From sequence record ON113172.1: a stretch of 57,457 nucleotides of DNA; one strand, 5' to 3'. The notes under the pieces were generated by a model. The model did not search any database. It saw nothing but the letters and a program-made list of their open reading frames with translations, and was not told the DNA's origin. A program made the position numbers and the translations under genes. Below are positions 1 through 37,440 of the stretch, one piece after another (the stretch's first letter is position 1; the number at the start of each line of letters is the position of its first letter). The stretch is from Enterococcus phage vB_OCPT_SDS2.

Positions 1-148
1 CTGTCTTTAAGAAACTAGATACTGCGTCTTTCGTTAAGACGTGAGGTTGGATAGCTTGTGCTAATTCTGGATTAGATTCAATAGCTCCAACGATAACCTC
101 TGGTGTCAAATCAACTTGTTGTCCTTGTCCTTGTTCTTCTGGATTCAT
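1..148 (-). CDS. N-terminal segment of the scaffolding-like protein gene. ATG at 146-148 (minus) with AAGGAG RBS. It reads through nt 1, which equals 57385, and continues at 57384 into the ORF annotated 56864..57358.
   Basis: Minus-strand reading frame is open from 148 to 1 and in frame with 57457 down to 56864. RBS GAAGGAG lies 8-10 nt upstream. No stop separates this from the MIDQSVSK... ORF. Confidence 0.55.
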   Translation of the reverse strand, partial: MNPEEQGQGQQVDLTPEVIVGAIESNPELAQAIQPHVLTKDAVSSFLKT

Positions 149-5319: not shown

Positions 5320-5348
5320 TTGACATTTTAAGGCAACCATGTTATAGT
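5320..5348 (+). promoter_or_regulatory. sigma-A type promoter TTGACA-N17-TATAGT for the plus-strand module
   Basis: Hexamers and spacing read directly. Followed by a roughly 130-nt leader with an 8-bp perfect hairpin (AAGCTCTC/GAGAGCTT, about 5397-5416). Confidence 0.6.
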
Positions 5349-5489
5349 TATTTATGTAAAAGACAAACAGGCGCTAAAGCACACCTTAAAAGCCACATGA
5401 AGCTCTCTGAGAGCTTTTGAGTAGCTTCTAGGGTAATTATCCCTGAACACATTAGAACGCCTTACACAGGCATTTAAGGAGGAATAAAG

Positions 5490-5801
5490 ATGAGAGCAAT
5501 TAAGATGTACTCCATCAAGAGTTATCAGCAGTATTTAGAGAAGCTTGGGACAGTACGAAAAGCGGCCGCAGACTTCGAGCTTAATAATAGCTTTTCAAAG
5601 AAGGCTCATGAATTAATCGCTAACCAGTATGCAGAAGATATTGAGAAGCTTTCCCAAAAGGTTCAAGAGTACCACGAGCTTATTGAGAATATCGTTTCTG
5701 ACGAAGCAGAAGAAGACGAAAAGCAGCTTATGGAATACTTAGGAACCATTAGAAAGCAGCAGAAGATTACTGAAGAGTTAGAGTCTGGAGGTAAGGAATA
5801 A
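5490..5801 (+). CDS. hypothetical protein
   Basis: GGAGG RBS. 103-aa helical protein. Confidence 0.55.
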   Translation: MRAIKMYSIKSYQQYLEKLGTVRKAAADFELNNSFSKKAHELIANQYAEDIEKLSQKVQEYHELIENIVSDEAEEDEKQLMEYLGTIRKQQKITEELESGGKE

Positions 5802-6076
5802 TGGAAGGTATTGAATTGGATTATTACCACGACTTTATTGTAAGCAACTACTTAGGTAATGATAGAGAGTCTATCGAAAACTCATTGGAGGAATTGTTTG
5901 ATATTCTTGACAGCAAGATTGAAGACATTACTGAATCTGAGTTAGAGGCTGCTGTAGATGGAGTTAATGAATCTATTGAGAACCTTACTAATTCTTTAAG
6001 TGAGCTTTCTGATGTCTTTACCAATGCTAAGCGATACTTGGCTAAGGAAGATAAGAAGTGGGAGGAGAATGTCTAA
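5801..6076 (+). CDS. hypothetical acidic protein
   Basis: ATG overlaps the upstream stop (TAATG). 91 aa, rich in D/E. Confidence 0.5.
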   Translation: MEGIELDYYHDFIVSNYLGNDRESIENSLEELFDILDSKIEDITESELEAAVDGVNESIENLTNSLSELSDVFTNAKRYLAKEDKKWEENV

Positions 6077-6462
6077 TGATGATTGCGAGTATTGATAGAG
6101 GAGCATATACTCCAGTGAATGTGAGCATAGGTAATAAGCTTGTGTCATTAGAAAGTTATGCCAATATTATTACATTCAGTAAATCAGAAACAGAAGAACT
6201 CATCCAAGTTCTGCAACAAGCTCTTAAAAAGCTCCCAGAAGAACCTAAATACGTTGTAGTATTTCCCCAGAAATCAGGGGAATTGTTTTGGAAGTATTTC
6301 TATTTAGCCGATACTGGAGCTATTTACAATAGTAATAAACCTCAAGAAGTCTTGGGAGATGGTGCTATGACACTAGGTGAAATTAGAGCTTTTAGTGAGT
6401 ATTACGAACCATTTGCAGTTCCTGTTGAAGAGTTTAAACAAAACGAGATTGGAGAGTTTTAG
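6076..6462 (+). CDS. hypothetical protein (start MMIASIDRG)
   Basis: GGAGGA RBS, then a TAATG overlap with the previous gene. Confidence 0.5.
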   Translation: MMIASIDRGAYTPVNVSIGNKLVSLESYANIITFSKSETEELIQVLQQALKKLPEEPKYVVVFPQKSGELFWKYFYLADTGAIYNSNKPQEVLGDGAMTLGEIRAFSEYYEPFAVPVEEFKQNEIGEF

Positions 6463-6463
6463 T

Positions 6464-6859
6464 ATGAGTAACCTACCTTTTGAGAAAGAATTAAAAGAGG
6501 CTTGTGCAAAGCCTACATTGACACAACGTGAAACAGCTTTAATTGAGCTTGTAGGAAAGCTTCAAGACGCCTTAGTGGATTCCAATTATGATAAACTTTT
6601 GTATGAACAGTGGTATGAAGAGGCTACTGAAGAAGTTAGAGGACTTGACGCTGACTTTGAGGAAGCTTCTTCGGAAATTGACATCCTTGAAAAAGAGATT
6701 CAAGACTTAGAAGAACAGGTATATGACTTAGAGAACGAGCTTGAGAGCTCTGAAGAAACTGTGGCAGAGCTTACAGAAGAAGTTGACACGCTTTCAGAAC
6801 GTGTAGAAGAGCTTGAGGAAACCGTTAACGAGCTTAACAGCGCTTTAGAAATATTATAA
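6464..6859 (+). CDS. acidic coiled-coil protein (start MSNLPFEK)
   Basis: GGAGAG RBS. Heptad repeats (EELEETVNELNSALE). Confidence 0.5.
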   Translation: MSNLPFEKELKEACAKPTLTQRETALIELVGKLQDALVDSNYDKLLYEQWYEEATEEVRGLDADFEEASSEIDILEKEIQDLEEQVYDLENELESSEETVAELTEEVDTLSERVEELEETVNELNSALEIL

Positions 6860-6884
6860 ACAGATACTATTGGAGGAATTTTAA

Positions 6885-7145
6885 ATGAACCGTATTAAAG
6901 TATATACTAAAGACATGTGCCAAGCCTGTAAGATGGCTAAGAGAGTGCTTACAGAAGGCGGAGTAAGCTTTGACGAAGTGTTTGTGGACGTCCGCAATGA
7001 TACAGAGACTGTGGAGATGCTTAGATTAGCGGGTTTCCGAAGCTTTCCAGTAGTGATTTTGGACGAAGACTTCGACACAGCTATTAGTGGATTCCACCCA
7101 CCTCGTTTGAAGGCCTTTATTGAAACTGTTAAGGAGGAAGCTTAA
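6885..7145 (+). CDS. NrdH/glutaredoxin-like redoxin
   Basis: 86 aa. Has a CQAC active-site motif in a thioredoxin-fold context (VYTKDMCQACKMAK...). Confidence 0.55.
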   Translation: MNRIKVYTKDMCQACKMAKRVLTEGGVSFDEVFVDVRNDTETVEMLRLAGFRSFPVVILDEDFDTAISGFHPPRLKAFIETVKEEA

Positions 7146-7516
7146 TGAAACTAATCGATGGAGAAGCTTTATTAACCACTATGAAAAACAAATTGGAATA
7201 CCCAGAAGATGATTACGATGAGGGTTATCAGGACGCTGTAGAAACTTGTATGGACGAAATTAAAGCAGCTTTATCGGTAGCTAAGGAAGAGGCTGCACCA
7301 GAGCCTATTAAATTAGCTATTGATGGAAACATTGTAGCAGAATCCTTTACAGGAAGCTCTGTAACGCCTATTAACACCTTGCCTCATAATTATACCAAAG
7401 ACGTTTTAGAAGCTCTCCTAGAGGCTTCTGAGGACTTCTATGATGCCTCTGAGATTCAAGCCTTGTTAAAAGGAGCTATCCAAGCTATTCCAAAAGGTAA
7501 AGGAGTGATTTTATGA
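7145..7516 (+). CDS. hypothetical protein, MKLID-family paralog
   Basis: N-terminus MKLIDGEALL is shared with 7513..7818 and 15498..15821. Confidence 0.5.
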   Translation: MKLIDGEALLTTMKNKLEYPEDDYDEGYQDAVETCMDEIKAALSVAKEEAAPEPIKLAIDGNIVAESFTGSSVTPINTLPHNYTKDVLEALLEASEDFYDASEIQALLKGAIQAIPKGKGVIL

Positions 7517-7818
7517 AGCTTATTGATGCCGAAGTAGTGTTAAATCACATTGAAAAGACCAAAGAGGAATTAAATACAACCAGCAACGCTGATAATTCAG
7601 CATTCGGAAAAGGTTGGGATGAAGGTTTCCTTGACGGAATCTCCTCTATCAGAGACCTTGTAAAAGACATTATCATAGAGGATGAAATTCCTTTGGCTAA
7701 CCACTCAGACATGATTCCAAAAAGTGAGTTCTTACGCCTTTTAGAAGCTATCCAAAAGCGTACTGAAGGCTGGGACGAATGGCACTTCGTTGCTGGAATT
7801 ATGGAAGCCTATAAATAA
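7513..7818 (+). CDS. hypothetical protein, MKLID-family paralog
   Basis: N-terminus MKLIDAEVVL. Confidence 0.5.
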   Translation: MKLIDAEVVLNHIEKTKEELNTTSNADNSAFGKGWDEGFLDGISSIRDLVKDIIIEDEIPLANHSDMIPKSEFLRLLEAIQKRTEGWDEWHFVAGIMEAYK

Positions 7819-7827
7819 AGCATAAAG

Positions 7828-7862
7828 AAGGCCTTCGGGAAGCTATCCTGAAGGCTTTTCTT
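7828..7862 (+). terminator. intrinsic terminator (9-bp stem with one mismatch, plus T-run)
   Basis: AAGGCCTTC..GAAGGCTTTTCTT directly after the 7818 stop. Confidence 0.5.
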
Positions 7863-8212
7863 ATTACATATTAAAACGAGCCTCTAGGAAGCTTACTAAA
7901 AGTCGCTGCTGGCACTTTGCATTAGGTGAGGCCATACGATTTAATAAGCTTTCTACAAACTCGTCCTTAAAGTAATTAACAACTGACTCCATCCCCGACC
8001 TGTAACCTAGACGTCTCAAAGCTTTAGGAAGGCTTAGGGGAACGTTTCAGGAAGCTTTTAGGAAAGGTCAAGTAATTACTAACTCGCTGGAGACCGCTCG
8101 TTAGTAGCTTCGCTAACTAACTCTTAACTAATACGACAGTATTTCCCACATGCTTTAAATTAGTCTCACTATTTGATGGAATATTTTATAACTGTAAAGT
8201 AAATTTAATGTT

Positions 8213-8234
8213 TGTAACACAAATGTAACATAAA
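8213..8234 (+). repeat. tandem 11-bp direct repeat TGTAACAcAAA / TGTAACAtAAA abutting the -35 of the 8240 promoter
   Basis: Read directly. Candidate operator or activator site. Confidence 0.5.
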
Positions 8235-8239
8235 GGATA

Positions 8240-8268
8240 TTGACAAGGCGCCTGAAAGGTGCTACAAT
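8240..8268 (+). promoter_or_regulatory. promoter TTGACA-N17-TACAAT
   Basis: Hexamers read directly. The annotated ATG at 8269 lies upstream of the expected TSS, so the CDS start was moved to GTG 8302. Confidence 0.55.
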
Positions 8269-8301
8269 ATGCTTATAGAAGAGGACTTAGGAGGGTTTTT
8301 A

Positions 8302-9027
8302 GTGAAGCTTATAAAAGAGGTTAAATCAGTAGACGTTGAGACAGGTTTAGAAACAGTTTACAGAAGCGCCTATGCTGCTTCTAAGGATTTAGGAAAGGAT
8401 TCAACAAGCGTTCGCAACGCCTGTGCTAAAAATAAGGTGTATGCAGGGCATGTGTGGAGTTATACTGGAAGAGAGTTTAAGAAGCATACTTCAATGCAAA
8501 GTAAAAAGCCTATCCAAAAGTATCTGGAAGGGGATTGGAAGCCTATTGAGGGATTTCCTAACTACTCAGTAAGCCGAAAAGGGGAAGTAGTAAATAACCG
8601 TACTGGAAGGATGCTGAAAGCTAGAATAAGCCACAATGGTTACAAGTCACTTTCACTAGGAGCTGGAAACAGTTTCAGAGTCCATCGACTAGTCCTGTCA
8701 ACATTCAGTCCAATAGACGGATGGGAAGAGCTTACAGTAAACCATATTGACGGAGATAAGCTAAACAACTGCTTAGATAACTTGGAGTGGCTCACTTTAG
8801 AGGATAATAAGAAGCACTACTACGACAACAATAAGCGTATATTAGTCTTTGACGATGCTACTGGAGAGGTTTTAGAAGAGGTTACACGAATGGAGAAAGC
8901 TTCCACTAAGTATGGGGTACCTAAAGGGGTTATCCAAGAGCTTTGTGACCTCTATCATGAGGGCATTTACGCTCATGAGAACGGTTATGGATTCTGCCGT
9001 ATGGAAGATTTTGGATTAGATGGTTAA
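8302..9027 (+). CDS. HNH homing endonuclease with NUMOD-type DNA-binding repeats (GTG start after GGAGGG RBS)
   Basis: NUMOD4-like WKPIEGFPNYSVSRKGEV. HNH core HRLV...NHIDGDKLNN. AGG(Y/H)xW(K/S)Y repeats at both ends. Confidence 0.7.
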   Translation: MKLIKEVKSVDVETGLETVYRSAYAASKDLGKDSTSVRNACAKNKVYAGHVWSYTGREFKKHTSMQSKKPIQKYLEGDWKPIEGFPNYSVSRKGEVVNNRTGRMLKARISHNGYKSLSLGAGNSFRVHRLVLSTFSPIDGWEELTVNHIDGDKLNNCLDNLEWLTLEDNKKHYYDNNKRILVFDDATGEVLEEVTRMEKASTKYGVPKGVIQELCDLYHEGIYAHENGYGFCRMEDFGLDG

Positions 9028-9044
9028 AAAGTGTTAGAAAAGGC

Positions 9045-9073
9045 TTGACAACATGCCTCTTTTATGCTATAAT
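9045..9073 (+). promoter_or_regulatory. promoter TTGACA-N17-TATAAT with TGc extended -10
   Basis: Read directly. Confidence 0.6.
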
Positions 9074-9101
9074 AATGGAGTATTAGGAAAGGAATGGTTA
9101 A

Positions 9102-9923
9102 ATGTTTTTCAAGAAGAACGAAAACAAACTGATTAAAGAGCTTGAACAAGAGATTGAATTATTAACTAGTAGAGAAGCCGTCTACCAACTATCCTTGGGG
9201 AGGCTAGAAATTGCTAATGAAGAGCTTCAAAAAGAGGTAGACGCCTTAAAGCTTAAAGAAGCTGGCTACAAAGAGCGTCTTAAATATGCTTCTGATAAGG
9301 AAGTAGAGGCTATTGAAATGGCTAACGAGTCCGCTGAAGAGAGATTGCTTAGACAAGAGGATTATGTTAGACTTGGTAAGAAATTTGAAGAGGTTTGTCA
9401 AAAGCTTTCAGTAGAAGAGGAGCAAAACAAGCGTTGGGAACAGGAAATGGGACGCCTTCAAGAGGATTACAACGGCCTTAAAAGAGAGTATAGAGAGCTT
9501 CAAGAAGCAATTCCTAGTAAGCCCCAACTAACAGCTTCTATTAAAGTTGATACTAAAGAGATTCATGAAATGCTTGATAAAGCCTTGCAAGAGATTAAGG
9601 AAGAGTATTCCCCACGCCTTAAAGAGGAGCCTGAGTATATTTATTGGATTGAAGAAGAAGGGGATTATGGTAGACATTTTGAGAGCGACTCCCCTCAGCA
9701 GTTACTAAGAAAGGTAAACGTATTTTATTCACCTAGTGATGCAGGTATTTTAACAATTTCAGAGGGTCTTCTTGAAATGATTACTCGCAAAAAGCATAAA
9801 GACATAATTATCGAAACTTGTTCAGAGACACCTGTGGAGTTTTATTCAAAAGGTTTTGATAAAATAGTCCAAATTAAGCTTTGCAGAAAGCTTGCTAAAG
9901 GAGTTGGAAACTATATTGTCTGA
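9102..9923 (+). CDS. hypothetical coiled-coil protein
   Basis: 273 aa. N-terminal half is E/K/L-rich heptads. Confidence 0.5.
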   Translation: MFFKKNENKLIKELEQEIELLTSREAVYQLSLGRLEIANEELQKEVDALKLKEAGYKERLKYASDKEVEAIEMANESAEERLLRQEDYVRLGKKFEEVCQKLSVEEEQNKRWEQEMGRLQEDYNGLKREYRELQEAIPSKPQLTASIKVDTKEIHEMLDKALQEIKEEYSPRLKEEPEYIYWIEEEGDYGRHFESDSPQQLLRKVNVFYSPSDAGILTISEGLLEMITRKKHKDIIIETCSETPVEFYSKGFDKIVQIKLCRKLAKGVGNYIV

Positions 9924-10146
9924 GAAATTTACTAAGCGATATATCTTAGCAGCCTTTATCATAGCCTATATGGTAACTGTTGGAGTTATCATTGGAGTAC
10001 TCTGGTTAGTATCCTTAATAACTGGTTGGGAACAGCTTTTCTTCTATCTTGGAATGCTCTTCGTGATAGACCTACTTTGGGAAACTACTAAATACGCATA
10101 TAACCGCTATAACGAAGATAAACATAAGACTTGGGAGGAACTTTAA
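9892..10146 (+). CDS. small 2-TM membrane protein (non-ATG start; the true start may be TTG about 9916 after AAAGGAG)
   Basis: Hydrophobic helices (AAFIIAYMVTVGVIIGVLWLV). Confidence 0.4.
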   Translation: MLKELETILSEKFTKRYILAAFIIAYMVTVGVIIGVLWLVSLITGWEQLFFYLGMLFVIDLLWETTKYAYNRYNEDKHKTWEEL

Positions 10147-10147
10147 T

Positions 10148-10357
10148 ATGAATTGGAAAGCTTTTAGACTAGTATCATTCTCTTATTTAGTAGCATTGGT
10201 GATTGCATTTGGGCTTATTGTAGCCATTACAGCAGTATTTGGAGGAGAGGTTACAATTGCTATTGGACGGATTTTAACAAACTTAATTCTCCTTAAACTA
10301 ATCTGGGATATGCTTCATAAAGAGTACAATAAAGCTAAGCAAGACTTAGAGAAATAA
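10148..10357 (+). CDS. small 2-TM membrane protein
   Basis: GGAGGA RBS. 69 aa, hydrophobic. Confidence 0.5.
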   Translation: MNWKAFRLVSFSYLVALVIAFGLIVAITAVFGGEVTIAIGRILTNLILLKLIWDMLHKEYNKAKQDLEK

Positions 10358-10362
10358 TGTTA

Positions 10363-10399
10363 GAGGCGCCTTGACAAGGCGTCTTTTTTATGCTATAAT
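10363..10399 (+). promoter_or_regulatory. composite unit: terminator hairpin (AGGCGCC / GGCGUCU plus U-run) whose loop is the -35 TTGACA of a TTGACA-N17-TATAAT promoter
   Basis: Read directly: gaGGCGCCttgacaaGGCGtCttttttatgcTATAAT. Confidence 0.6.
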
Positions 10400-10428
10400 A
10401 AGGTATATTAAAAGCGGAGGTAAAGGAT

Positions 10429-10740
10429 ATGAATGGATTTTTAGAAGATGGTTATTACGTTGTTAAGATGAAGTATTGTGGAGTGCCTTATGAATGGGAA
10501 GGTGTAGCAGAAGACGAAGAGGATGCCTTCGACCAAGCTAAGAAAGTCATTTCTGAGGAGCTTCTCCTAAGATATTATAGAGGCTTTGAGCAACACAGGG
10601 TAACAAGACTTAAGATAGTCCATAAGAAGGCTCCAACATATGCTGCCTTAAACTTTTGGAAAGGCGTTGCAGCAGTGTCTGTGGTAGTGTCTATTGCAAT
10701 CTACCTTTTAGAGATGGTTAGAGAATCCATCTACGGCTAA
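10429..10740 (+). CDS. hypothetical protein with C-terminal TM
   Basis: GGAGG RBS. 103 aa. Confidence 0.5.
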   Translation: MNGFLEDGYYVVKMKYCGVPYEWEGVAEDEEDAFDQAKKVISEELLLRYYRGFEQHRVTRLKIVHKKAPTYAALNFWKGVAAVSVVVSIAIYLLEMVRESIYG

Positions 10741-10753
10741 AATAAACCTTCAG

Positions 10754-10788
10754 GAGGCCTTGACACGGCCTCTTTTTTATGGTATACT
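10754..10788 (+). promoter_or_regulatory. composite terminator (GAGGCC/GGCCTC plus T6) and promoter (TTGACA in the loop, N17, TATACT)
   Basis: Read directly. Only a 21-codon ORF (10823..10888) follows. Confidence 0.55.
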
Positions 10789-10899: not shown

Positions 10900-11760
10900 C
10901 AACTTAATAAACGCTTGTGTGAATACTCCACTAGAAAGAGGCAAAGCCTCTAGGGCTGCCGACAAGCGGCGCCCTCTCTATATGTGGAATCTATTCTTAA
11001 AGGACACTAAAGAAGAGGTATCAGGAAAGGTAGCTTTAAAGCTTTTGGACGTCTATTGATGGAATGCTTTTCGGATAGCTTGTCGGAATAGCCTCGGAAA
11101 GCTTGTCGGGAAGTGTGTCGGGACGCCTTATAGGGGATTTTTAGCAAAAAATAAATCGGAAGGCCTATAATGTCGCTTTTCCCAAAAACTGTGTGAGATG
11201 GACAGTCGCGCCCCCCCCGCCCACCCTCGGAAAAGCTACCCCCTGCCCTTCCCAAAGACCCCCGCCCGCCGTTGCCACGCCTGCGCCCTGCGCCTTCCTT
11301 CACGCTTCACGACGCCTTGCGAGTGCTTCGCGACGCTCTCACGTCACGCCGTCCGACACGCTCACACAAGCGACTTCACTTAGACTCTGTCTCTTTGCTG
11401 TTAACATTGCATTGAGTCAGGGTCTTTCTACTTTGGATAATGTGTATTATGTAAACTAGCGCCTTGTTAGGGCTGTTCGGATAGCTTTCGGACACCATTA
11501 GCACGCCTCTATAATGCCTGTCGTGTGCCTGTGAGTGTGGTCTTTAGTGTTAACCTGTGGTGAAAGCTATCGGACACCCTCTCGAGCCACCTCTCCCCAA
11601 AGCCCACCACACCAGCATTCCGCAAAGCCTTCTTATTTCCTTTAATAAAAACAAATCCACCACAAAGCTTTCGATTAGGCTTCTTAGATTCGCCTTGAGA
11701 TTACGCCCCTTCACGCCCTCTAGATACCCTTCAGAAAAACCCCCATAACAACGCCCTAGA
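10900..11760. repeat. non-coding GC-rich island carrying iterons and a C8 homopolymer (11211-11218). It lies in the convergence zone between the plus-strand module and the leftward early genes.
   Basis: Repeats found:
- TTCGGATAGCTT at 11060 and 11476.
- GCTTGTCGG at 11068 and 11091, with its reverse complement at 10959.
- AGCT(T/A)TCGGACACC at 11483 and 11565.
The local GC content is far above the genome average. ORFs here are Gly/Arg/Pro-rich artefacts. Confidence 0.6.
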
Positions 11761-13465: not shown

Positions 13466-13690
13466 TTACATTTTTTGTTCTATACTTTTCAAAATGTCAA
13501 TTAGTTCAGCCTTGCTCATGTCTTCGATGCGTTGTTTTTCAGATTCTTTATTAAAAGCCTTTACTAGCGCATATAACCAACCTATAAAAGTCCATCCGAA
13601 AAAGATATTAATAAGAATAACGCTTTTCTTATTTTCAGCCTTTCTAATTAATATTATGATAGAGGGTAAAAGATATAATAGTACAGCCAT
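13466..13690 (-). CDS. small membrane protein
   Basis: 74 aa with 2 TM segments. Confidence 0.45.
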   Translation of the reverse strand: MAVLLYLLPSIIILIRKAENKKSVILINIFFGWTFIGWLYALVKAFNKESEKQRIEDMSKAELIDILKSIEQKM

Positions 13691-15821: not shown

Positions 15822-16129
15822 TTTTAAAACCTCTTTCTTATAATTTATTTTAGTAGCTCGTTGCCACACTCTTAATATACTACTTTCAAAAACCTTTGTC
15901 AACACTTTTAATAAACTTTTTTAAAATTCCATTGAAAGGCGGTAAATTGTGCTGCCGTTTTCTTTTAATAGTTTCTTTTTATTGCCTGTTAACGCTCCCT
16001 CTAATTTACTATTGGTAAGCTTTCTCTTAATGTTTTTCCCATGTCGTCTCTTCCTCTCTTTTCTTGATGGCTTAATAATAGCATGTTAGAAAATGCCTGT
16101 CAACAATAAAATACAACTTTTTAAAATTA

Positions 16130-16788
16130 TTTTTGGCAGCTTAGACACAAAAACGGCGCTTTATATAGTAGAAACTTTTAAAAACTACTCGAAAAAGCCA
16201 TTATAAAAGCGTTTCTATGGTTTTTAAGAAATAACATACAAAAATACTCGTAAAAAGAGTAAGAAAAGCCCTTAAAAAGGCGTAAAAATGCTTAAAAAGC
16301 CCCTTATAAGGCACTTCTCGTGGAAACTGGGGGGGGGAGTAGTATAGTAAGGTATAGTAACATAACCTAGGATAACCTACAATAAAACTAACTATAAAGC
16401 ATAGGGAATAGACTATAGTAAAGGCATATGTGCAACCTTATGTAACAGCATCCATCAATAATGTTTATTAAATGATATAGAAAAGCTTGTGCAACAGCAT
16501 ATATAAGGCGCCACACAACAAATATGTGGATAGTTGTGCAGAAAGCAATGCGAAATGTGCTCAGAATGCGCCTGTGCGACACGCTATTTCAATAAATATG
16601 TAAAATAAGCGCTAATAATGGAATCCAGTAGCGCTTTTAGGAAAAACTTTTAAGAAAAATTTTTTAAATTTTTTTGAAGTTTGGAAAAAATTTTTTAAAA
16701 ATTTCGCCCCTACCTTTTTGAAAACTAGAAAACAGCCCCTCGGTATTACACTTCCGAAAGGCTGTTGATATTAATTTATTTAGCTGTT
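16130..16788. other. non-coding AT-rich island, a candidate origin or cis-acting region. It contains a G9 tract (16329-16337), A5 tracts phased about 11 bp apart (16275-16305), a DnaA-box-like TGTGGATAG (16526-16534), repeated TGTGC(A/G)AC and TATAGTAA motifs, and the palindromic A/T block 16650-16720.
   Basis: No credible ORF. Repeats were read directly. Confidence 0.45.
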
Positions 16789-17112
16789 CTACAAGTCTTC
16801 GCTTTTAACGAATACTCCGTCAATCATCTTTCCTGTACGCTTAGAAATAACACCATAAGCGGTATCCAAAGCTTCGTGAGGCTCTACTCCAAGCTGTTGA
16901 CAAAGGATAATTAAAGTTACAAAAGTATCTCCAAGGCCATCAACAAGCTCTTCTCGGTCGTTACGAGCCATAGCAGCTGCTACTTCTCCAACCTCTTCAA
17001 TAACTTTTAAAAATTGTTTCTCAGGAGCAGCTTTGTCTAATCCTTTGTTAGCTGACCATTCTTGTACTTGTTCAATAAGTGTATTAAAATCCATTCTACT
17101 TGTCCTCCACAT
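16789..17112 (-). CDS. mazG: MazG-like nucleoside triphosphate pyrophosphohydrolase
   Basis: EEVGEV...E..DGLGD motif typical of the MazG/HisE fold. 107 aa. Confidence 0.65.
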   Translation of the reverse strand: MWRTSRMDFNTLIEQVQEWSANKGLDKAAPEKQFLKVIEEVGEVAAAMARNDREELVDGLGDTFVTLIILCQQLGVEPHEALDTAYGVISKRTGKMIDGVFVKSEDL

Positions 17113-21777: not shown

Positions 21778-22533
21778 TTATTTAAACCAATCTTTTCTAG
21801 CAGTCATTTTACCCCAGTTTTTACCAATCTCAATATCGGTCTTACTAGGAACTACTAGTTTCACAGTGTTAATCATAACGTCTTCGATAGCGTCTACTTC
21901 AGCTTCTGTTACGTCTTCTGGAACCTTAAATAAGATTTCATCATGTACTTGGGCAAGGAATCCAAATGAGTTAGGTTCTCCACGAGCCTCCGACAACTCT
22001 TTCAAACGGATTCTAGCAGCATTCATTACAAGCTTAGTCTGAGAGGCCGCTCCTCCTTGAATTAAAGCGTTAGTAGCTTGTCGCAAGGCTCTTGCTGCTG
22101 CTGAGCGGAGCTTCTTATCGTTTTCATCTAAGGAGTTCCAATTCTTTTTAAGGATGTCAAAGTTTTCATGCTTGAATCTACGACGCATTCCGAACAGCGT
22201 TTCAACATAGCGTTGCTTAATAACTGTCTTCTTATTGCCTTCAATCCAAGTTTCCACTTCTGGGTATACTATGAAGAAGTCGTCAATCATTTTCTGAGCT
22301 TCCTGAGCGTCGATACGAAGGATGTCGGCAAGGCTGTAAGCGCCCATTCCATACATGATAGCAAGGACAATCATCTTGGTGTTCTTACGGTAAATGGAGC
22401 CGTCCAAACACTCTTCGATAGGCTTATTAAAGATTGCTGAAGCCATTTCAGAATACAAGTCACGGCCTTCATTATAGATGTTAATAAGTTCTTGACATCC
22501 ACTTGAATGTGCAAGTAGCCTAGGTTCTTGTTG
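21778..22533 (-). CDS. polA: DNA polymerase I family (family A), exon 2: motif A tail, motif B and motif C
   Basis: In-frame upstream extension reads QQEPRLLAHSSGCQELINIYNEGRDLYSEMASAIF, which matches QIELRILAHLSGDENLIEAF. Motif B is RKNTKMIVLAIMYGMG. Motif C is QVHDEIL. Confidence 0.7.
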   Translation of the reverse strand, partial: QQEPRLLAHSSGCQELINIYNEGRDLYSEMASAIFNKPIEECLDGSIYRKNTKMIVLAIMYGMGAYSLADILRIDAQEAQKMIDDFFIVYPEVETWIEGNKKTVIKQRYVETLFGMRRRFKHENFDILKKNWNSLDENDKKLRSAAARALRQATNALIQGGAASQTKLVMNAARIRLKELSEARGEPNSFGFLAQVHDEILFKVPEDVTEAEVDAIEDVMINTVKLVVPSKTDIEIGKNWGKMTARKDWFK

Positions 22534-23281
22534 CGTTAATTTGAGGGGCGTTACTCCCTTTCCACAATTTCTTGTGTAATTGGACTATATCATATAGCTT
22601 TAAAATAAGCTATCCCACCGCTTCGACTTCACTTGAAGCCTACTCTACTAAGTTCTTGGAGAAGCAGTTAAGCCTCTCCAAGCTTTTCGATAGTCTCTGA
22701 ACTTGCGTACTTCCAGAAGAATCCTCCTGCATGTTTTCGTAAACCTCTACCAACTTTACTAATATTTTGGCGAGCTACACCAGTTTCTTTTTCAGCGTCA
22801 ATAGGACTATCAAAGCGCTTAATGAAGTTACCTTCTAAGTCATATTGGAACACTTCTTTAGCCTTACTACCTCTATTAGTTAAATACATATGTCGGTTAT
22901 TTTCAGAAACGGTTGCCCACTCTAAATTAGATTTACGATTATCATTTCTTACTCCATTTAAATGATTCACTACAGGCTTATCTTCAGGGTTAGGGATGAA
23001 GTTCTCTGCAACTAACCGATGGACTCTGTACATTTTCTTTCTAGGCAGACCTCTTTGAAGAGGTACTCTAGCGTATCCATCATGCGTTAAATGTTGCTTC
23101 ATTTCTAATCCTTCTGAGTTAAATATTCTTCCTTCTTCTGTTACAGAGTAATACTTATTTTCAATACCTTCTATAAGCATTCTGATTCCTTCCTGTAACT
23201 GTACGATTAGCTGCTGATTGGCATAGGATTTCTCCCTTAGCTTTCCAGCAATTCAATGGGTTTTACTTCAGCCAACAGTTA
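22534..23281 (-). ncRNA. group I self-splicing intron interrupting the polymerase gene, with an HNH homing-endonuclease ORF in a loop
   Basis: - The 5' exon ends with U (..GACUUCAGU).
- The intron begins UAA (in-frame stop) followed by CUGUUGGCUGAAG.
- IGS GCUGAAG pairs with exon CUUCAGU and has a terminal U.G, forming P1.
- CUGUUG pairs with the 3' exon CAACAag, forming P10.
- The intron ends in G before CAACAAGAA. Confidence 0.7.
22668..23180 (-). CDS. intron-encoded HNH homing endonuclease
   Basis: HRLV..NHLNGVRNDNRKSNLEW HNH core. C-terminal NUMOD-like ISKVGRGLRKHAGGFFWKY. Confidence 0.7.
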   Translation of the reverse strand: MLIEGIENKYYSVTEEGRIFNSEGLEMKQHLTHDGYARVPLQRGLPRKKMYRVHRLVAENFIPNPEDKPVVNHLNGVRNDNRKSNLEWATVSENNRHMYLTNRGSKAKEVFQYDLEGNFIKRFDSPIDAEKETGVARQNISKVGRGLRKHAGGFFWKYASSETIEKLGEA

Positions 23282-24877
23282 ACTGAAGTCTGCTCCAAGG
23301 ATTAATGAGCCTTCTGGAGCCTCAAACATCTTACGAGCTTTCTTGGGCTGCTGTTGTAAATTAGGGTTAGAAGCACTGAAACGACCTGTAACAGTACCAA
23401 ATTGGTTAAACTGTCCGTGGAGCTTTCCGTCAGGCGCAATGAAGGTGTCAATCTTGTTTACGAAAGCTGTCAAATGCTTTGTCAAGTCTTTATAATCAAG
23501 GATGTCCTGAACCTCGTCAACGGCCTTGGCAATCTTTTTCATAGCCTTAGCATTGGCTTGTAACTTGTTTCGGTCGTTTTTAGGAACAACCTTTCCTTCA
23601 GCGTTTACAATAGGGTCTAGGATAACACTTCCATTAGGCATTAATGCAAACAGTTTGTTATTGCTTATTCCATGCTCGTCATAACCTACGTGGCCTCTTA
23701 GAATGGATTTGTGGTCAGCTGTAACATACTTACTCCAATCATTGTCTACGTAAAGCAGTTTTAACAGCTGTGATGGAGAGCTGAAGTTAATGTCGCCAAA
23801 GCGTGCTTGAAGGCGTGCAGAAATCTCTTCTAACTCTGCCTCGCTTTCCTTACGCTGTACCTCAACCTCTTCCATGTTAATGTGGAAGCCTTCTGATTCC
23901 ATTTCAAAAGTGGCCATAATACAAGGTCGCTCAATCCGTTCATAAACCTTTTTAATCTTAGCGAATGAAGGCTTATTAAGGATGTTCAACTGCCATTCAA
24001 ACAGGAGGAATCCAACATAAGTATCCTTTCCCGCGTACCATCGAGCAATCTCAACAGCAATGTCAGCAAACTTAGCATTCTTTCCAAACATTTCCTCAAA
24101 AGTATCTGATGGAATATTCAAGAAGCGTGTTGCTAAAACTTTCAACTGGTAGCTTGGTAGGTCTTCATCTAATAAGTGCATTAAGATTAAGGTATCGTGG
24201 ACAGGCGTTCTAGGAGCGATTCCTAAAGAAGCTTTAGCAAGCCCCATATCGAAGGTTGCATTATGCCATACAGTTGCCTTATCTGACTCAAAGACTCTCT
24301 TAATTCCTTCCTCAGCCCACTTAACATTAGCAATATTTAAATGGCTTGGAGAACCATCTTCTTCACGGTGTCGCATAGGCACGTAACCATTGATGATATC
24401 ACCTTTATAACGGTATGTTAAAGAGAATCCTGAAATCTCTTCACGATACATGTCTGTTCCACCATTGTCACCGACCGTTTCAAAGTCCATCGCCAAGTAT
24501 TCATTATCACATTCAAGAGCGTTGTCAATCCAACTAGCAAGCTCTACAATATTGTTTATGATAGGGAATTTCTTCCACTCTTTCTTACGGATTTCGTCAA
24601 ACTTAGCTTCTCGTTCCATTTCTTGAACCTTTTGGTAAATACGTAGAGCCTCAGCCTTTGAGAAGTTCTTGTTTAACTTGTCTTCCTCACGGCTTACCTT
24701 ACCTTCTTCAAGGTATTCCTTAACTAATTTAAGGCGCTCCTTATCCTTAGCAGAGTTCTTCATTGAGAAGATTTTTGCCCAAGCTTCTTCCATTGTTAAT
24801 AAAGGCTTCTTGCCCTTAACTTTTTTAATTGCTTCCTTAGCTTTTTTATCATCAGGCAAGTTAACTGAAATCTTCAT
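23282..24877 (-). CDS. polA: DNA polymerase I family, exon 1 (3'-5' exo-like and N-terminal polymerase region). Start taken at MKISVNLP with AAGGAGG RBS. Ends LILGADFS at the splice site.
   Basis: Motif A (L)ILGADFS is truncated by the stop codon at the intron start. 3'-5' exo-like DFETVG. Confidence 0.7.
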
Positions 24878-24908
24878 ACAAACTTCCTCCTTGTTTATTC
24901 GATACCTT

Positions 24909-24937
24909 ATGATAACATAAAAAGAGACCTTTGTCAA
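24909..24937 (-). promoter_or_regulatory. minus-strand promoter TTGACA-N17-TATCAT
   Basis: The reverse complement reads cTTGACAaaggtctctttttatgtTATCAT. The -35 lies in a hairpin (GAGACC/GGCCTC) that is followed by a T-run. Confidence 0.5.
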
Positions 24938-27412: not shown

Positions 27413-28051
27413 TTAAATTTGTTGCATAATCTTTTTGCGAGCGGAGGTAAGGTGTCTACTCAAGGTGCTTCTTGAAGGCATATCTGGAAGCACTTCAATC
27501 TCACGCATAGTGTAATCGTAGATAAGATTTAGCTCAAGGACTTTCTTCTCCATCTCAGTTAAATCGGCTTTTTCCATTGCCTTTAACAAGTCAGTTCTAA
27601 GAGCTGCTCGCTCCATATCCAATGATGAGGCAATGTTATTTCGTGAATAACCATTTCCTTCCAATACTTCTAGGTTGATTGGAGATTCTTTATATAAGTC
27701 CTCAGTACGGATTCGCTTCTCCTTTTTATCAGAAGCAAAGCTATACTCCATTTTGGAACAGCGAGCGAACTTGTTAGTGCCTTCCAAATCGCCTCTAGTA
27801 TCGTCTTGCATATAATATGTTGAGAGGATGTTTGCTAGGCTATCTGGTAATGCTACGTCTCCAAAGCGTTCGTAATACATCTCTAAAACCTCTTCACAAA
27901 AAAGCTCTCTAACCTCAAGTGGTACTTTAACTTTCATAACAACTCTATTAATCAATCTTATTAAAACCATACGGAACTCATTTGCTGTTTCCGCTTCTAC
28001 TAACTTTTCGTAGTATGATTTCTCAGAGATTAATAGATTAGCCATTAGCAA
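27413..28051 (-). CDS. sigma-70 family (region 4 / ECF-like) transcription factor, a candidate late-gene sigma
   Basis: C-terminal HTH LTEMEKKVLELNLIYDYTMREIEV...STLSRHLTSARKKI resembles sigma region 4. Confidence 0.5.
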   Translation of the reverse strand: MLMANLLISEKSYYEKLVEAETANEFRMVLIRLINRVVMKVKVPLEVRELFCEEVLEMYYERFGDVALPDSLANILSTYYMQDDTRGDLEGTNKFARCSKMEYSFASDKKEKRIRTEDLYKESPINLEVLEGNGYSRNNIASSLDMERAALRTDLLKAMEKADLTEMEKKVLELNLIYDYTMREIEVLPDMPSRSTLSRHLTSARKKIMQQI

Positions 28052-32672: not shown

Positions 32673-33206
32673 TTACATACTAATTTCTACTTTGTACTTG
32701 TGGTTCTCTTTAATACCTTTGTATTTAAACACGTTTCTAAAGTAATTACTACTTTGTCCTTCGGCTAGTGAAGCTTCTGTCATTCCATTATAATAATTAA
32801 CTTCACCAGTGCTTTTACGAGTTACTTTAATATTATGTCCATTCGATTCAGCTATCCGTTTATTCCTAGTTCCATGATTGCAGTTTGATTTGAAATCTAC
32901 CCACTCAAGATTGTCAACCGCATTGTTAGTTGTATCCTCGTCTATATGATTTACAACTGGCAGGTTTTTAGGGTTTTCAATAAATGCTTTAGCTACTAAC
33001 CTATGAGCAGCTTTTCGGGATGTTTTTCCAAACATACTTAAATCATACGCTATATATCCCTTCCTGTCAAGCTTTTTTAGAACTCTTCCATTAATAGTCC
33101 TAGTTCCATTTACATTTTTTACTTTTCTAGTTACTGACCTGACGTTTCCTAGATTACTAACCTCATAGAACCTTTCGTATCCAACTACTGGTTTCCATAG
33201 TTCCAT
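32673..33206 (-). CDS. free-standing HNH homing endonuclease inserted between the helicase and loader genes
   Basis: NUMOD4-like WKPVVGYERFYEVSNLGNV. HNH core HRLV..NHIDEDTTNN..NLEW. Confidence 0.7.
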   Translation of the reverse strand: MELWKPVVGYERFYEVSNLGNVRSVTRKVKNVNGTRTINGRVLKKLDRKGYIAYDLSMFGKTSRKAAHRLVAKAFIENPKNLPVVNHIDEDTTNNAVDNLEWVDFKSNCNHGTRNKRIAESNGHNIKVTRKSTGEVNYYNGMTEASLAEGQSSNYFRNVFKYKGIKENHKYKVEISM

Positions 33207-36387: not shown

Positions 36388-36479
36388 AATAATCTCTCCT
36401 CTATCTCTTTGATGAATTAATCATACCACGTATTGAAAGTTTTGTCAAGGACTTTTTAACAAAAAAAGAACAGCCGTTA

Positions 36480-37200: not shown

Positions 37201-37214
37201 CCTACTTTATGGAA

Positions 37215-37340
37215 TTATTTACGTTTACTTTTGGCACGCATTTTAGCAAGGCGCTCCATCTTCTTCTTAGCAGCTTCCTGCTCAGCTTTCACAATGGCAC
37301 GGTTCCAAGCTTTCTCACTTTTCATACTTTCAGTAGTCAT
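37215..37340 (-). CDS. 41-aa lysine-rich basic protein (MTTESMKSEKAWNRAIVKAEQEAAKKKMERLAKMRAKSKRK)
   Basis: GGAGG RBS 8 nt upstream. The longer track ORF (to 37490) overlaps the tRNA and was rejected. Confidence 0.45.
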   Translation of the reverse strand: MTTESMKSEKAWNRAIVKAEQEAAKKKMERLAKMRAKSKRK

Positions 37341-37369
37341 TCCACAAACCTCCATAAGACTTATTTGAA

Positions 37370-37440
37370 CACGCTGTGAAGGAGTCGAACCCTCTCTAAT
37401 GGTTTTGGAGACCATTGTGCAGCCGTTACACTTACAACGC
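37370..37440 (-). tRNA. trnW: tRNA-Trp (anticodon CCA), 71 nt, CCA not encoded
   Basis: Hand-folded:
- 7-bp acceptor stem (GCGUUGU/ACAGCGU, 2 G.U).
- D-stem GUGU/GCAC with GG in the loop.
- Anticodon stem AUGGU/ACCAU, loop CU-CCA-AA.
- T-stem GAGGG/CCUUC with loop TTCGACT.
- Discriminator G. Confidence 0.65.

What the first reader, a model, noticed from the sequence alone, without database searches (positions are those of the whole stretch)
16130..16788. Second non-coding island: G9 tract, phased A-tracts, DnaA-box-like site and AT palindromes
- About 650 bp without ORFs between the early array and mazG.
- It contains a run of 9 G, which is complementary in polarity to the C8 run 5 kb away at 11211.
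- A5 tracts are phased at about 11 bp (ttaaaaaggcgtaaaaatgcttaaaaagcc), which predicts intrinsic bending.
- TGTGGATAG is 8 of 9 to the DnaA box TGTGGATAA.
- TGTGC(A/G)AC recurs five times and TATAGTAA three times.
- A 70-bp pure-A/T palindromic block (16650-16720) resembles a DNA-unwinding element.
- This is a strong origin-of-replication candidate. Together with 10900-11760 it brackets the accessory early gene array. The homopolymer tracts are also potential slipped-strand or phase-variable sites.
Basis: seen in the sequence. Interest (0 to 1): 0.6.

Follow-up and report, generated by a model that had tools for sequence, protein, structure and literature searches.

The report
Conserved repeat-rich non-coding island, probable origin
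A 650-base gene-free stretch of an Enterococcus phage genome, holding phased repeats, bent DNA, an easily melted A/T block and a length-variable run of G, is more conserved than the genes around it; it is most likely a replication control site, but that is unproven.

Summary
The window is a circularly assembled Saphexavirus (Enterococcus faecalis siphophage, SAP6/VD13 group). The island at 16130-16788 is real and non-coding, and all 70 related phage records found carry it.

- **Conservation:** two blocks (16250-16369 and 16490-16729) are 91-99% conserved, against 80-90% for the flanking genes.
- **Anatomy:** a covariation-supported terminator; the least stable A/T 60-mer of the genome; two AGCGCT palindromes; three repeat arrays spaced about 10-11 bp apart, two of them tandem; a G-run that is always present but is 8-12 nt long in relatives; and a candidate promoter facing into the island, back to back with the first early promoter.
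- **DnaA box:** the "DnaA box" is a chance match and is not conserved.
- **Genome end:** the island is not the genome end. The experimentally supported 343-bp terminal repeat maps to the other island (11204-11548), about 5 kb away. Records that end at the G-run are assembly breaks.
- **Best reading (about 0.4):** a non-coding replication origin of the kind proven in prolate-headed lactococcal c2-type phages. It shows the same pattern of near-invariance within a type and divergence between types.
- **Rivals:** an early-region regulatory or insulator element, a non-coding RNA gene, or a T5-like injection-stop site.

No initiation evidence exists.

The parts
16720..16766 (-). Intrinsic terminator closing the replication/nucleotide-metabolism operon (mazG, or an inserted ORF in relatives). 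Stem arms are 16754-16766 and 16731-16743, the loop is 10 nt, and the U-rich tail is 16720-16730.
   Evidence: All 13 pairs are formed in 10 distinct sequences. Two pairs show compensatory changes (8 cells). Three U-G pairs fit only the minus-strand RNA. The hairpin is present whatever gene lies upstream.
16640..16720 (.). A/T block made of three AAAAAA(n)TTTTTYC-type units with palindromic arms. It is a candidate DNA-unwinding element.
   Evidence: It holds the least stable 60-mer of the window (16642-16702) and ties for the top A+T content. Inverted arms lie at 16657-16675 and 16686-16704. TRF finds a period of 10-11. The same kind of unit is repeated three times in the IME198/SE and L016 lineages with different sequence.
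16606..16637 (.). Two copies of the palindromic hexamer AGCGCT (16608-16613 and 16630-16635). They could form a hairpin or be two dimer-binding sites.
   Evidence: The sequence is. It is invariant in the core lineage. The arms are kept with a different loop in L016 and are absent in IME198/SE.
16525..16581 (-). Array of five phased GCRCATT-like units about 10.5 bp apart. It includes the core GTCRCACAGGMGCATTCTRAG and the DnaA-box-like CTATCCACA.
   Evidence: On the minus strand the units start at 16571, 16560, 16550, 16539 and 16529 (and by reading). Five of the window's 40 minus-strand GCACA lie within 150 bp. The core is shared by three lineages, but the DnaA-like 9-mer is not.
16422..16490 (.). 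Variable spacer with two sequence variants in the core lineage.
   Evidence: Identity is 68-75% here, against 91-99% on either side.
16343..16421 (-). TACTATAC(CT) repeats of 10 nt (TATAGTA on the + strand). Two tandem copies abut the homopolymer and one more starts at 16414. An ATAACCTA pair lies between them.
   Evidence: Four of the six minus-strand TACTATA in the window lie in the island. TRF finds a period of 10. Two to five copies abut the C-run in all three lineages.
16329..16337 (+). G9 homopolymer (C-run on the transcribed strand). It is always present in relatives but varies in length.
   Evidence: It is the only G run of 7 or more in the window. It is 8-12 nt long in 20 relatives. 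The two overlapping copies differ within IME198 (8 against 11) and within KEN03 (11 against 12). Assemblies break here.
16240..16328 (+). Near-invariant block with six phased A-tracts, predicted to bend the DNA. On the minus strand it holds two small hairpins followed by T-runs.
   Evidence: It is the strongest phased A-tract array in the window. It is 96-97% conserved, including in SE and IME198. The terminator-like hairpins are 16312-16299 and 16281-16268.
16142..16169 (+). Candidate sigma-A promoter P(+)1 (TAGACA, 16 nt, TATAGT). It points into the island, back to back with the early promoter.
   Evidence: Found by the promoter scan. The -10 hexamer TATAGT is the same in 18 of the 19 relatives where the site was found (TATAGA in L016; not found in EFC1). 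The -35 varies but keeps 4-5 of 6 matches (TAGACA, TTTACA, ATGACA, TAGTCA and others). It is displaced by a roughly 10-nt duplication in EF-P29 and PHB08.
16075..16103 (-). First consensus early promoter (TTGACA, 17 nt, TGnTATTAT) of the right-terminal array of small genes.
   Evidence: It is present in all 20 sequences compared.
15906..16044 (-). Remnant of the first early gene, with an internal deletion and a frameshift. It extends the apparent non-coding gap in this genome only.
   Evidence: tblastn with the fHoEfa01_00037 homologue matches its residues 2-28 and 83-97. Conservation here is only 18-51%.

Best explanation
The island is a cis-acting, non-coding replication origin of the kind known in lytic phages of lactic-acid bacteria, with prolate-headed Lactococcus c2-type phages as the best-studied case.

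**Proposed working (inferred, not shown):** phage or host proteins assemble on the three repeat arrays, whose units lie about 10-11 bp apart, and on the intrinsically bent A-tract DNA. The adjacent A/T block, the least stable duplex in the genome, opens so that the phage DnaC-like loader can load the DnaB-type helicase. Transcription entering from the candidate + strand promoter at 16142-16169 may help. The G-rich RNA made across the G-run could form a stable RNA-DNA hybrid.

**Shown here:** the element is non-coding, is under stronger sequence constraint than the neighbouring genes, has this anatomy, and keeps a fixed position between the terminator of the replication operon and the first early promoter.
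For: - **Non-coding:**
- **Widespread and constrained:** all 70 related records found carry it. Blocks 16250-16369 and 16490-16729 are 91-99% conserved, against 80-90% for the flanking genes.
- **Phased arrays and bent DNA:**. The arrays are kept in kind in three lineages.
- **Easily melted:** the least stable 60-mer of the genome lies next to the arrays.
- **Few alternatives:** it is the only repeat-rich non-coding region apart from the genome terminus. The other large gap (36450-37650) is GC-rich, tRNA-like and has almost no repeats.
- **Position:** it lies at the 3' end of the operon that holds polymerase, DnaG-type primase, DnaC-like loader and DnaB, beside the first early promoter.
- **Sequence types:** the upstream half is 98% identical between SE and IME198 but only 67% identical to the core lineage. 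Experimentally proven Ceduovirus origins show a similar pattern: non-coding, next to the first early promoters, more than 90% identical within a type, with no significant similarity between types, and dependent on a non-coding transcript (PMC7150918).
Against: - There are no data on replication initiation.
- No origin-binding protein is recognisable.
- No replication-module protein allele co-varies with island type.
- There is no DnaA-box cluster.
- GC skew shows no inflection here and follows gene orientation only.
- No conserved promoter was found in the same orientation as the early genes, unlike c2 PE1. The candidate P(+)1 points the other way and is displaced in EF-P29 and PHB08.
- The A/T block is only marginally less stable than several promoter regions.
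- High conservation could also come from frequent recombination across a module boundary.
Confidence: 0.4

Rival explanations
1. The island is a boundary and control element for the terminal early array. Back-up terminators stop read-through from the replication operon. Curved A-tract DNA and the repeat arrays bind a regulator of the divergent promoters. The G-run sets the spacer of a second + strand promoter (TGGAAA, G-run, TATAGT at 16321-16348), which would make it phase-variable.
For: - A proven terminator opens the island, and further hairpin-plus-T-run sites follow on the minus strand.
- The strongest phased A-tracts of the genome lie just upstream of the candidate -35.
- The spacer between the TGGAAA and TATAGT hexamers runs from 14 to 19 nt across relatives, mostly 16-17, as the run length changes.
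- Two copies from the same sample differ in run length.
Against: - No gene lies downstream of the + strand promoters.
- The TGGAAA hexamer is a weak match (9 of 12 overall) and is absent in L016.
- Operators are usually short, whereas about 230 nt here are nearly invariant.
- The replication genes upstream use the same consensus sigma-A promoter type as the array, so the island is not a boundary between promoter classes.
Confidence: 0.22
2. The island encodes a non-coding RNA. The candidate is a + strand transcript of about 460 nt running from P(+)1 to the AGCGCT hairpin, acting in trans or as an antisense brake on read-through.
For: - A candidate promoter is largely conserved.
- A hairpin followed by TTTT lies at 16606-16640.
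- The sequence folds better than shuffles: z = -2.8 for the + strand and -3.8 for the minus strand of 16490-16790.
- The sequence is nearly invariant.
Against: - No Rfam family reaches threshold. The best match is SpF22 at 26 bits against a cut-off of 55, mostly over A/T-rich sequence.
- The fold scores are driven by the palindromes and the terminator.
- There is no covariation to test outside the terminator.
- The + strand hairpin has a poor U-tail.
- The promoter is displaced in two relatives.
Confidence: 0.1
3. The island is a DNA-entry pause site like the T5 injection stop signal. The right end, carrying the early array of about 5 kb, would enter first and stall at the island until early proteins act.
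For: - The island starts 4.9-5.1 kb (about 9% of the genome) from the right physical end. T5 first transfers 7.9% of its genome.
- The terminal segment carries seven consensus host-type promoters.
- As in T5, an untranslated region full of repeats and palindromes, with bent DNA, is better conserved than the neighbouring ORFs. In SE it is interrupted by an HNH gene.
Against: - It is not known which end enters first.
- The terminal repeat is 343 bp, not about 10 kb, so the element is not duplicated.
- There are no paired DnaA boxes.
- No early-array protein had a functional PHROGs or Pfam match except one superinfection-immunity homologue, so no A1/A2-like function is evident; homology to A1/A2 itself was not tested.
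- Two-step transfer has never been reported for these phages.
Confidence: 0.08
4. The G-run marks a physical genome end (a terminal repeat or pac site).
For: Several GenBank records and a Logan contig start or stop exactly at the run. IME198 carries a 435-bp repeat spanning it at both record ends. PhageTerm reported 'DTR (short)' for KEN03 and KEN05.
Against: - The KEN03 and PG2 overlaps are exactly 127 nt, an assembler k-mer length.
- The two IME198 copies differ only at the run and at one A-tract, and the record is flagged circular.
- KEN17 is also reported as 'DTR (short)' but its record is not opened here.
- The restriction-supported and annotated DTR of SE maps to window 11548-11204, and LilEfe_55 opens there too.
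Confidence: 0.03
5. The island is a host-DnaA-dependent, oriC-like origin, as the DnaA-box observation implied.
For: One 8-of-9 site lies at 16525, next to TGTGCAGAA.
Against: There are 23 such sites in the window and no exact box. The site reads CTTACCACC in L016 and TTATGCACT in IME198. The phage carries its own loader, helicase and primase.
Confidence: 0.03

Closest known systems
Non-coding origin of replication of Lactococcus Ceduovirus (c2, bIL67 and 923 types)
   Same: The hosts are both Lactobacillales and both phages are prolate-headed lytic siphophages. In both, the region has no ORF or RBS, lies beside the first early promoters, is highly conserved within a type and diverged between types, and transcription into the region is implicated (PMC7150918; here).
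   Different: - The c2 origin lies between two early promoters (PE1, PE2), and PE1 makes the non-coding transcript. Here no promoter in the early-gene orientation was found, and the candidate promoter faces the other way.
- c2 origins replicate plasmids without phage proteins, which is untested here.
- There is no sequence similarity.
- This phage is 57 kb with a short terminal repeat and its own polymerase, primase, loader and helicase.
- The conserved homopolymer and the three phased arrays are not described for c2.
T5 injection stop signal (untranslated Repeat Region 3 of the left terminal repeat)
   Same: Both are untranslated regions crowded with direct repeats, inverted repeats and palindromes, with helical phasing and bent DNA. 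Both are better conserved than the neighbouring early ORFs, lie at the inner edge of a terminal early segment of about 8-9% of the genome, and are interrupted by HNH genes in some relatives (here).
   Different: - It is not inside a long terminal repeat.
- There are no paired DnaA boxes.
- No A1/A2-like function is evident among the early-array proteins.
- The order of DNA entry is unknown.
- The host is Gram-positive.
R-loop-primed origins that depend on a G-run (ColE1 RNA II, mitochondrial CSB II); own knowledge, not checked here
   Same: A G-run lies on the non-template strand downstream of a promoter and near an easily melted region.
   Different: No transcript or hybrid has been shown. 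The run lies about 300 nt from the A/T block. The promoter is only predicted.
Phase-variable promoters with a homopolymer spacer (for example Neisseria porA and opc); own knowledge, not checked here
   Same: A homopolymer lies between -35-like and -10-like hexamers, and its length varies between isolates and probably within populations.
   Different: There is no downstream gene, the -35 is weak and not universal, and the context is a lytic phage.

Membership tests
c2/Ceduovirus-type non-coding phage origin | The region has no ORF of 100 bp or more that is translated, and no RBS | tested here: met
   The ORFs are not conserved. Variable sites are spread evenly over codon positions, unlike in the flanking genes.
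c2/Ceduovirus-type non-coding phage origin | Flanked by the first two early promoters, the first of which makes a non-coding transcript across the origin | tested here: inconclusive
   The early promoter at 16103-16075 flanks one side. No conserved promoter in the same orientation was found at the other side. A candidate promoter in the opposite orientation lies at 16142-16169.
c2/Ceduovirus-type non-coding phage origin | Discrete sequence types: highly conserved within a type, with no significant similarity between types | tested here: inconclusive
   The upstream 330 nt are 98% identical between SE and IME198, 88% identical within the core lineage, and 67% identical between these two lineages. 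The between-type value is raised by shared repeats and a 20-nt core. The downstream half is shared by both.
c2/Ceduovirus-type non-coding phage origin | Supports plasmid replication in the host | not testable with these tools
   This needs cloning in E. faecalis.
Iteron plus DUE origin (lambda, plasmid or oriC type) | Three or more direct repeats that could bind an initiator | tested here: met
   Three arrays with units about 10-11 bp apart were found. Protein binding is untested.
Iteron plus DUE origin (lambda, plasmid or oriC type) | An adjacent A/T-rich region of low duplex stability | tested here: met
   The least stable 60-mer of the window lies at 16642-16702.
Iteron plus DUE origin (lambda, plasmid or oriC type) | An identifiable initiator gene, usually nearby or co-varying with the repeats | tested here: not met
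   No such family was found in Pfam or PHROGs. The only allele that looked type-linked (37879-38265) is also found in phages with the core-type island.
Iteron plus DUE origin (lambda, plasmid or oriC type) | A cluster of DnaA boxes (for the oriC-like version) | tested here: not met
   There is a single one-mismatch site, among 23 in the window, and it is not conserved.
T5 injection stop signal | An untranslated repeat region that is more conserved than the neighbouring early ORFs | tested here: met
   compared.
T5 injection stop signal | Lies at the inner edge of the DNA segment that enters first | tested here: inconclusive
   It lies 4.9-5.1 kb from the right terminus. The order of entry is unknown.
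T5 injection stop signal | Lies within a long terminal repeat and carries paired DnaA boxes | tested here: not met
   The DTR is 343 bp and lies elsewhere. There are no paired boxes.
T5 injection stop signal | Pre-early proteins (A1 and A2) that release the stop | tested here: inconclusive
   The early-array proteins match only families of unknown function, apart from one Imm-type homologue. Direct homology to A1 or A2 was not tested.
Phase-variable homopolymer promoter | Tract length varies between isolates and within populations | tested here: met
   The run is 8-12 nt long in 20 relatives. Two copies from one sample differ (8 against 11, and 11 against 12). Sequencing error is not excluded.
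Phase-variable homopolymer promoter | The tract lies in the spacer or leader of a promoter that drives a gene | tested here: not met
   Candidate hexamers exist, but there is no downstream gene and no -35 in L016.
Physical genome terminus or direct terminal repeat | The sequence is present at both ends of virion DNA | tested here: not met
   The SE DTR and the LilEfe_55 start map to 11204-11548. Overlaps at the island are assembler artefacts.
Intrinsic (rho-independent) terminator, for 16720-16766 only | A GC-rich stem kept by compensatory change, followed by a U-run | tested here: met

The most novel reading that the evidence does not exclude
The island is a DNA-entry stop site. This Gram-positive siphophage would inject its right-terminal segment of about 5 kb (about 9% of the genome, seven host-type promoters, small takeover genes) and pause at the repeat-rich, bent island carrying the homopolymer until early proteins release it. 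That would be a T5-like two-step transfer that arose without a long terminal repeat or DnaA boxes.
Probability: 0.08. Interest if true: 0.8.

Novelty: new member of a known kind. Interest (0 to 1): 0.4.

Why it matters
- **Therapy and engineering.** Saphexaviruses are among the most used candidates for Enterococcus phage therapy and for reporter phages. No papers found in the searches run here describe their replication origin or early control regions, and their packaging was only recently examined.
- **If it is an origin.** A defined origin would help phage engineering and synthetic rebooting. It would explain why this non-coding block is the most constrained DNA in the region. It could also provide a decoy-type resistance tool or a shuttle replicon for E. 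faecalis.
- **Practical point.** The G-run is a systematic assembly breakpoint, and records opened there should not be read as showing physical ends. The true terminal repeat lies about 5 kb away.

Tried and rejected
1. **Genome end at the G-run.** Rejected: the overlaps are k-mer artefacts, and the SE DTR and the LilEfe_55 start map to 11204-11548.
2. **DnaA box.** A chance match, and not conserved.
3. **Protein-coding or leader ORFs, including an ORF read through the C-run.** The start codon is not conserved, the frames break, and variable sites are spread evenly over codon positions.
4. **Known RNA families.** None found; the SpF22 match is weak and A/T-driven.
5. **TACTATA as a phage-sigma or late-promoter motif.** It is absent upstream of terS and from the other minus-strand operons.
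6. **Motifs shared with the terminal island.** None beyond chance.
7. **Co-variation of a replication protein with island type.** The one candidate (37879-38265) failed against 71 genomes.
8. **Copies in bacterial genomes or plasmids (decoys or satellites).** None found. The only plasmid hit is a mislabelled phage contig.
9. **More distant relatives by motif scan.** Only one new Saphexavirus contig and one unrelated hit turned up.
10. **GC skew as an origin marker.** It follows gene orientation only.
11. **A rival origin in the 36450-37650 gap.** That gap is GC-rich, tRNA-like and has almost no repeats.
12. **Literature searches for a Saphexavirus origin, transcriptome or homopolymer.** Nothing relevant was found.
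Full report
**What the window is.** The window is the genome of an Enterococcus faecalis siphophage of the genus Saphexavirus (SAP6, VD13, BC611, IME-EF1 group). Seventy phage records match the region at 82-97% identity. The first 73 nt equal the last 73 nt, so it is a circularly assembled unit genome of about 57.4 kb. Annotation of close relatives gives the gene order on the minus strand: packaging and structural genes, lysis, then a replication and nucleotide-metabolism block. That block holds an SSB-like gene, DnaG-type primase, DnaC/IstB-like loader, DnaB-type helicase, Cas4-like nuclease, RuvC, a dNMP kinase, a sigma-like protein, a glycosyltransferase, DNA polymerase and MazG. After it come the island and an array of small genes of unknown function.

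**Checking the observation.**
- The island is free of real genes. The mechanical ORFs of 37-64 aa are interrupted or change frame in relatives. Their variable sites fall evenly on the three codon positions (10/9/10, 4/6/7, 21/26/31, 10/10/6). The flanking genes show the expected third-position excess (18/18/49, 12/13/45, 36/27/58).
- G9 (16329-16337) and C8 (11211) are the only G or C runs of 7 or more in the window.
Six tracts are spaced 10-12 bp apart, and this is the best-phased A-tract window in the whole 57 kb.
- TATAGTAA occurs three times on the + strand, all in the island.
- TGTGC(A/G)AC occurs three times exactly. Only the TGTGC core occurs five times.
- The A/T block is 81% A+T over 80 bp, not pure A/T. 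It still holds the least stable 60-mer of the genome, though only just ahead of several promoter regions.
- The DnaA-like 9-mer is one of 23 one-mismatch matches, and there is no exact box.

**Where the genome ends are.**
- Many records start or stop inside the island, mostly at the G-run. This first suggested a physical terminus, but the evidence goes the other way.
- The KEN03 and PG2 end overlaps are exactly 127 nt, an assembler k-mer length.
- KEN05 simply carries C11 at both record ends.
- The 435-bp overlap of IME198 differs between its two copies only at the run (C8 against C11) and at one A-tract, and the record is flagged circular.
- For phage SE, restriction mapping showed fixed ends with a repeat of about 300 bp (PMC11510935). 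The GenBank record annotates a 343-bp DTR, which maps at 89% identity to window 11548-11204.
- The linear LilEfe_55 record opens one base inside the same boundary.
- So the other island (10900-11760) holds the physical ends. The present island lies 4.9-5.1 kb inside the right end.
- The C8 run lies in the last 15 nt of the DTR and is not a homopolymer in SE.

**Anatomy, read in the direction of transcription (minus strand).**
1. A terminator hairpin (16766-16731) with a U-rich tail. All 13 pairs form in ten distinct sequences. Two pairs show compensatory changes, and three U-G pairs fit only the minus-strand RNA. It is kept whatever gene lies upstream, since relatives carry extra ORFs or an HNH gene there.
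2. An A/T block of three A6-T6-like units (16720-16640).
3. Two AGCGCT palindromes (16635-16608).
4. Five GCRCATT-like units at 10-11 bp intervals (16581-16525), including a 20-nt core shared by all lineages.
5. A variable spacer (16490-16422).
6. TACTATAC(CT) 10-nt repeats abutting the homopolymer.
7. The C-run (G9 on the + strand).
8. A nearly invariant block with the phased T/A-tracts (16328-16240).
9. A box reading CTACTATATAAAGCGCC. On the + strand this forms a promoter-like TAGACA, 16 nt, TATAGT (16142-16169). The -10 is TATAGT in 18 of the 19 relatives where the site was found (TATAGA in L016; not found in EFC1), and the -35 varies but keeps 4-5 of 6 matches. It is displaced by a short duplication in EF-P29 and PHB08.
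10. The first consensus early promoter (16103-16075), found in all 20 sequences compared.

In this genome only, the first early gene is a deletion remnant, which lengthens the apparent gap.

**Conservation.**
- Against 14 relatives, blocks 16250-16369 and 16490-16729 are 91-99% identical. The flanking genes are 80-90% identical and the spacer 68-75%.
- Two further lineages, SE/IME198 and the metagenomic contig L016, replace much of the upstream half with different sequence. They keep the same kinds of part: the terminator, three A/T units, GCACA-type repeats with the 20-nt core, TACTATAC repeats, the C-run, and the box next to the early promoter.
- The upstream 330 nt are 98% identical between SE and IME198 but only 67% identical to the core lineage.
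- The DnaA-like 9-mer reads CTTACCACC in L016 and TTATGCACT in IME198, so it is not a conserved feature.

**The homopolymer.**
- It is present in every sequence examined. Its length is 8-12 nt.
- Two copies from the same sample differ in IME198 and in KEN03.
- At least eight independent assemblies break at it, including a Logan contig that stops at ...TACTATACTAgg.
- The simplest reading is that it is the one unresolved, length-heterogeneous site of a genome that otherwise assembles as a circle. A nick or a polymerase stop in virion DNA is not excluded and needs raw reads.

**What it most likely is.**
- The combination fits a replication origin best. The element is strictly non-coding and more constrained than the genes around it. 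It has three arrays of short repeats spaced about one helical turn apart, strongly bent DNA, and the most easily melted duplex of the genome next to them.
- It lies at the end of the replication operon, beside the first early promoter. It is the only such region apart from the terminus: the other large gap (36450-37650) is GC-rich and tRNA-like and has almost no repeats.
- The closest documented case is the origin of the prolate-headed lactococcal Ceduovirus phages. That origin is a non-coding stretch at the first early promoters. It falls into three sequence types that are each more than 90% conserved and show no significant similarity to each other. It depends on a non-coding transcript, and it can drive plasmid replication (PMC7150918).
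- I put this reading at about 0.4. The steps from anatomy to mechanism are all inferred: protein assembly on the arrays, opening of the A/T block, loading of DnaB by the phage loader, and a possible helper role for a transcript from P(+)1 whose G-run could anchor an RNA-DNA hybrid, as in ColE1 or mitochondrial CSB II (my own knowledge, not checked here).

**What speaks against it.**
- There are no initiation data of any kind.
- No origin-binding protein is recognisable.
- The only replication-module allele that seemed to follow island type (37879-38265) turned out to be common among phages with the core-type island.
- GC skew follows gene orientation and has no inflection here.
- No conserved promoter was found in the orientation of c2 PE1.
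- The island has no copies in plasmids or in 185,000 bacterial genomes that could hint at decoys or satellites.

**Rivals.**
- *Regulatory or insulator element for the terminal early array (about 0.22).* It would use the terminator-like hairpins, the bent DNA, and a possible promoter whose spacer is the G-run. That spacer ranges from 14 to 19 nt across relatives. Against it: there is no downstream gene, the -35 is weak and not universal, and the invariant block is very long.
- *Non-coding RNA gene (about 0.1).* It has only a predicted promoter and a weak terminator.
- *T5-like injection stop (about 0.08).* This is the most novel reading. The T5 site is likewise an untranslated, repeat- and palindrome-rich, bent region. 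It is better conserved than the neighbouring ORFs and lies at the inner edge of a terminal segment of about 8%. Here there is no long terminal repeat and there are no paired DnaA boxes. No A1/A2-like function is evident, and it is not known which end enters first.
- *Physical terminus, and DnaA-dependent origin (about 0.03 each).* Both are disfavoured by direct tests.

**Verdict.** The DnaA box should be dropped. The partner island is the genome terminus. The G-run is variable, while the C8 run is not a conserved homopolymer. The island is a new and so far undescribed member of a known kind of element. It is of moderate interest, with a small chance of being something more unusual.

Noticed in passing
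window 11204-11548, with flanks 11040-11160 and 11480-11590: The physical genome end lies here. The 343-bp DTR of phage SE maps to this stretch at 89% identity, and the linear LilEfe_55 record opens one base inside the same boundary. Repeated TCCGA(M)AAGC-like motifs flank the repeat on both sides and may be terminase recognition sites.
   Followed up: partly
window 1-73 and 57385-57457: The first 73 nt are identical to the last 73 nt. This is a circular-assembly overlap, so the unit genome is about 57,384 bp.
   Followed up: yes
window 36450-37650: A 1.2-kb GC-rich non-coding stretch in the replication module holds tRNA-Trp (37369-37441). It also holds two more GGTTCGAxTCC T-arm-like boxes (about 37030 and 36570) that neither ARAGORN nor Rfam calls. 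These may be decayed tRNAs or a structured RNA.
   Followed up: partly
window 21778-24937: The DNA polymerase is split into two ORFs (23279-24937 and 21778-22458) by a 170-aa ORF (22668-23180). The gene is intact (about 2.5 kb) in LilEfe_55 and SE. A mislabelled relative annotates an HNH endonuclease at this position.
   Followed up: no
window 32673-33206: An ORF with NUMOD4 and HNH domains (a homing-endonuclease type) is inserted between the DnaB-type helicase and the DnaC-like loader. It is only 34-46% identical in IME198, EfS7 and fHoEfa01 (88% in SE).
   Followed up: partly
window 15906-16044: The first early gene is a remnant here. The N- and C-terminal parts of the fHoEfa01_00037 homologue remain, with an internal deletion and a frameshift. 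A strong RBS and a 13-codon stub follow the early promoter.
   Followed up: yes
L111 (CP121457.2, 'Lactococcus lactis plasmid unnamed3'): This linear 21.8-kb 'plasmid' record is a fragment of a Saphexavirus genome (island, MazG, split polymerase, RuvC). It is probably contamination or mislabelling.
   Followed up: yes
(records HE962497, PV874195, PP848412): Records named Streptococcus phage SP-QS1, Enterobacter phage BHUENT5 and Escherichia phage vb_EcoB_G21-7 are Saphexavirus genomes that closely match the Enterococcus phages. The host labels are doubtful.
   Followed up: no
whole window; sigma-like ORF at 27413-28051: Consensus TTGACA, 17 nt, TGnTATAAT promoters are frequent on the + strand at 5320-10760 and on the minus strand at 12557-39715. 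No gene-oriented one lies in the structural module. This fits late transcription by the phage sigma-like protein.
   Followed up: partly
window 13466-13690: The early array encodes a homologue of the Imm superinfection-immunity protein (Pfam PF14373, E = 8e-14). The other array proteins match only families of unknown function.
   Followed up: partly
L092 522-1019 (phage SE, SE_86) and the equivalent remnant in IME198: In the SE/IME198 lineage a 165-aa ORF, which I judged HNH-like from its sequence without a domain search, or its remnant lies inside the island just after the terminator hairpin. This parallels the HNH insertion that splits the T5 repeat regions.
   Followed up: partly
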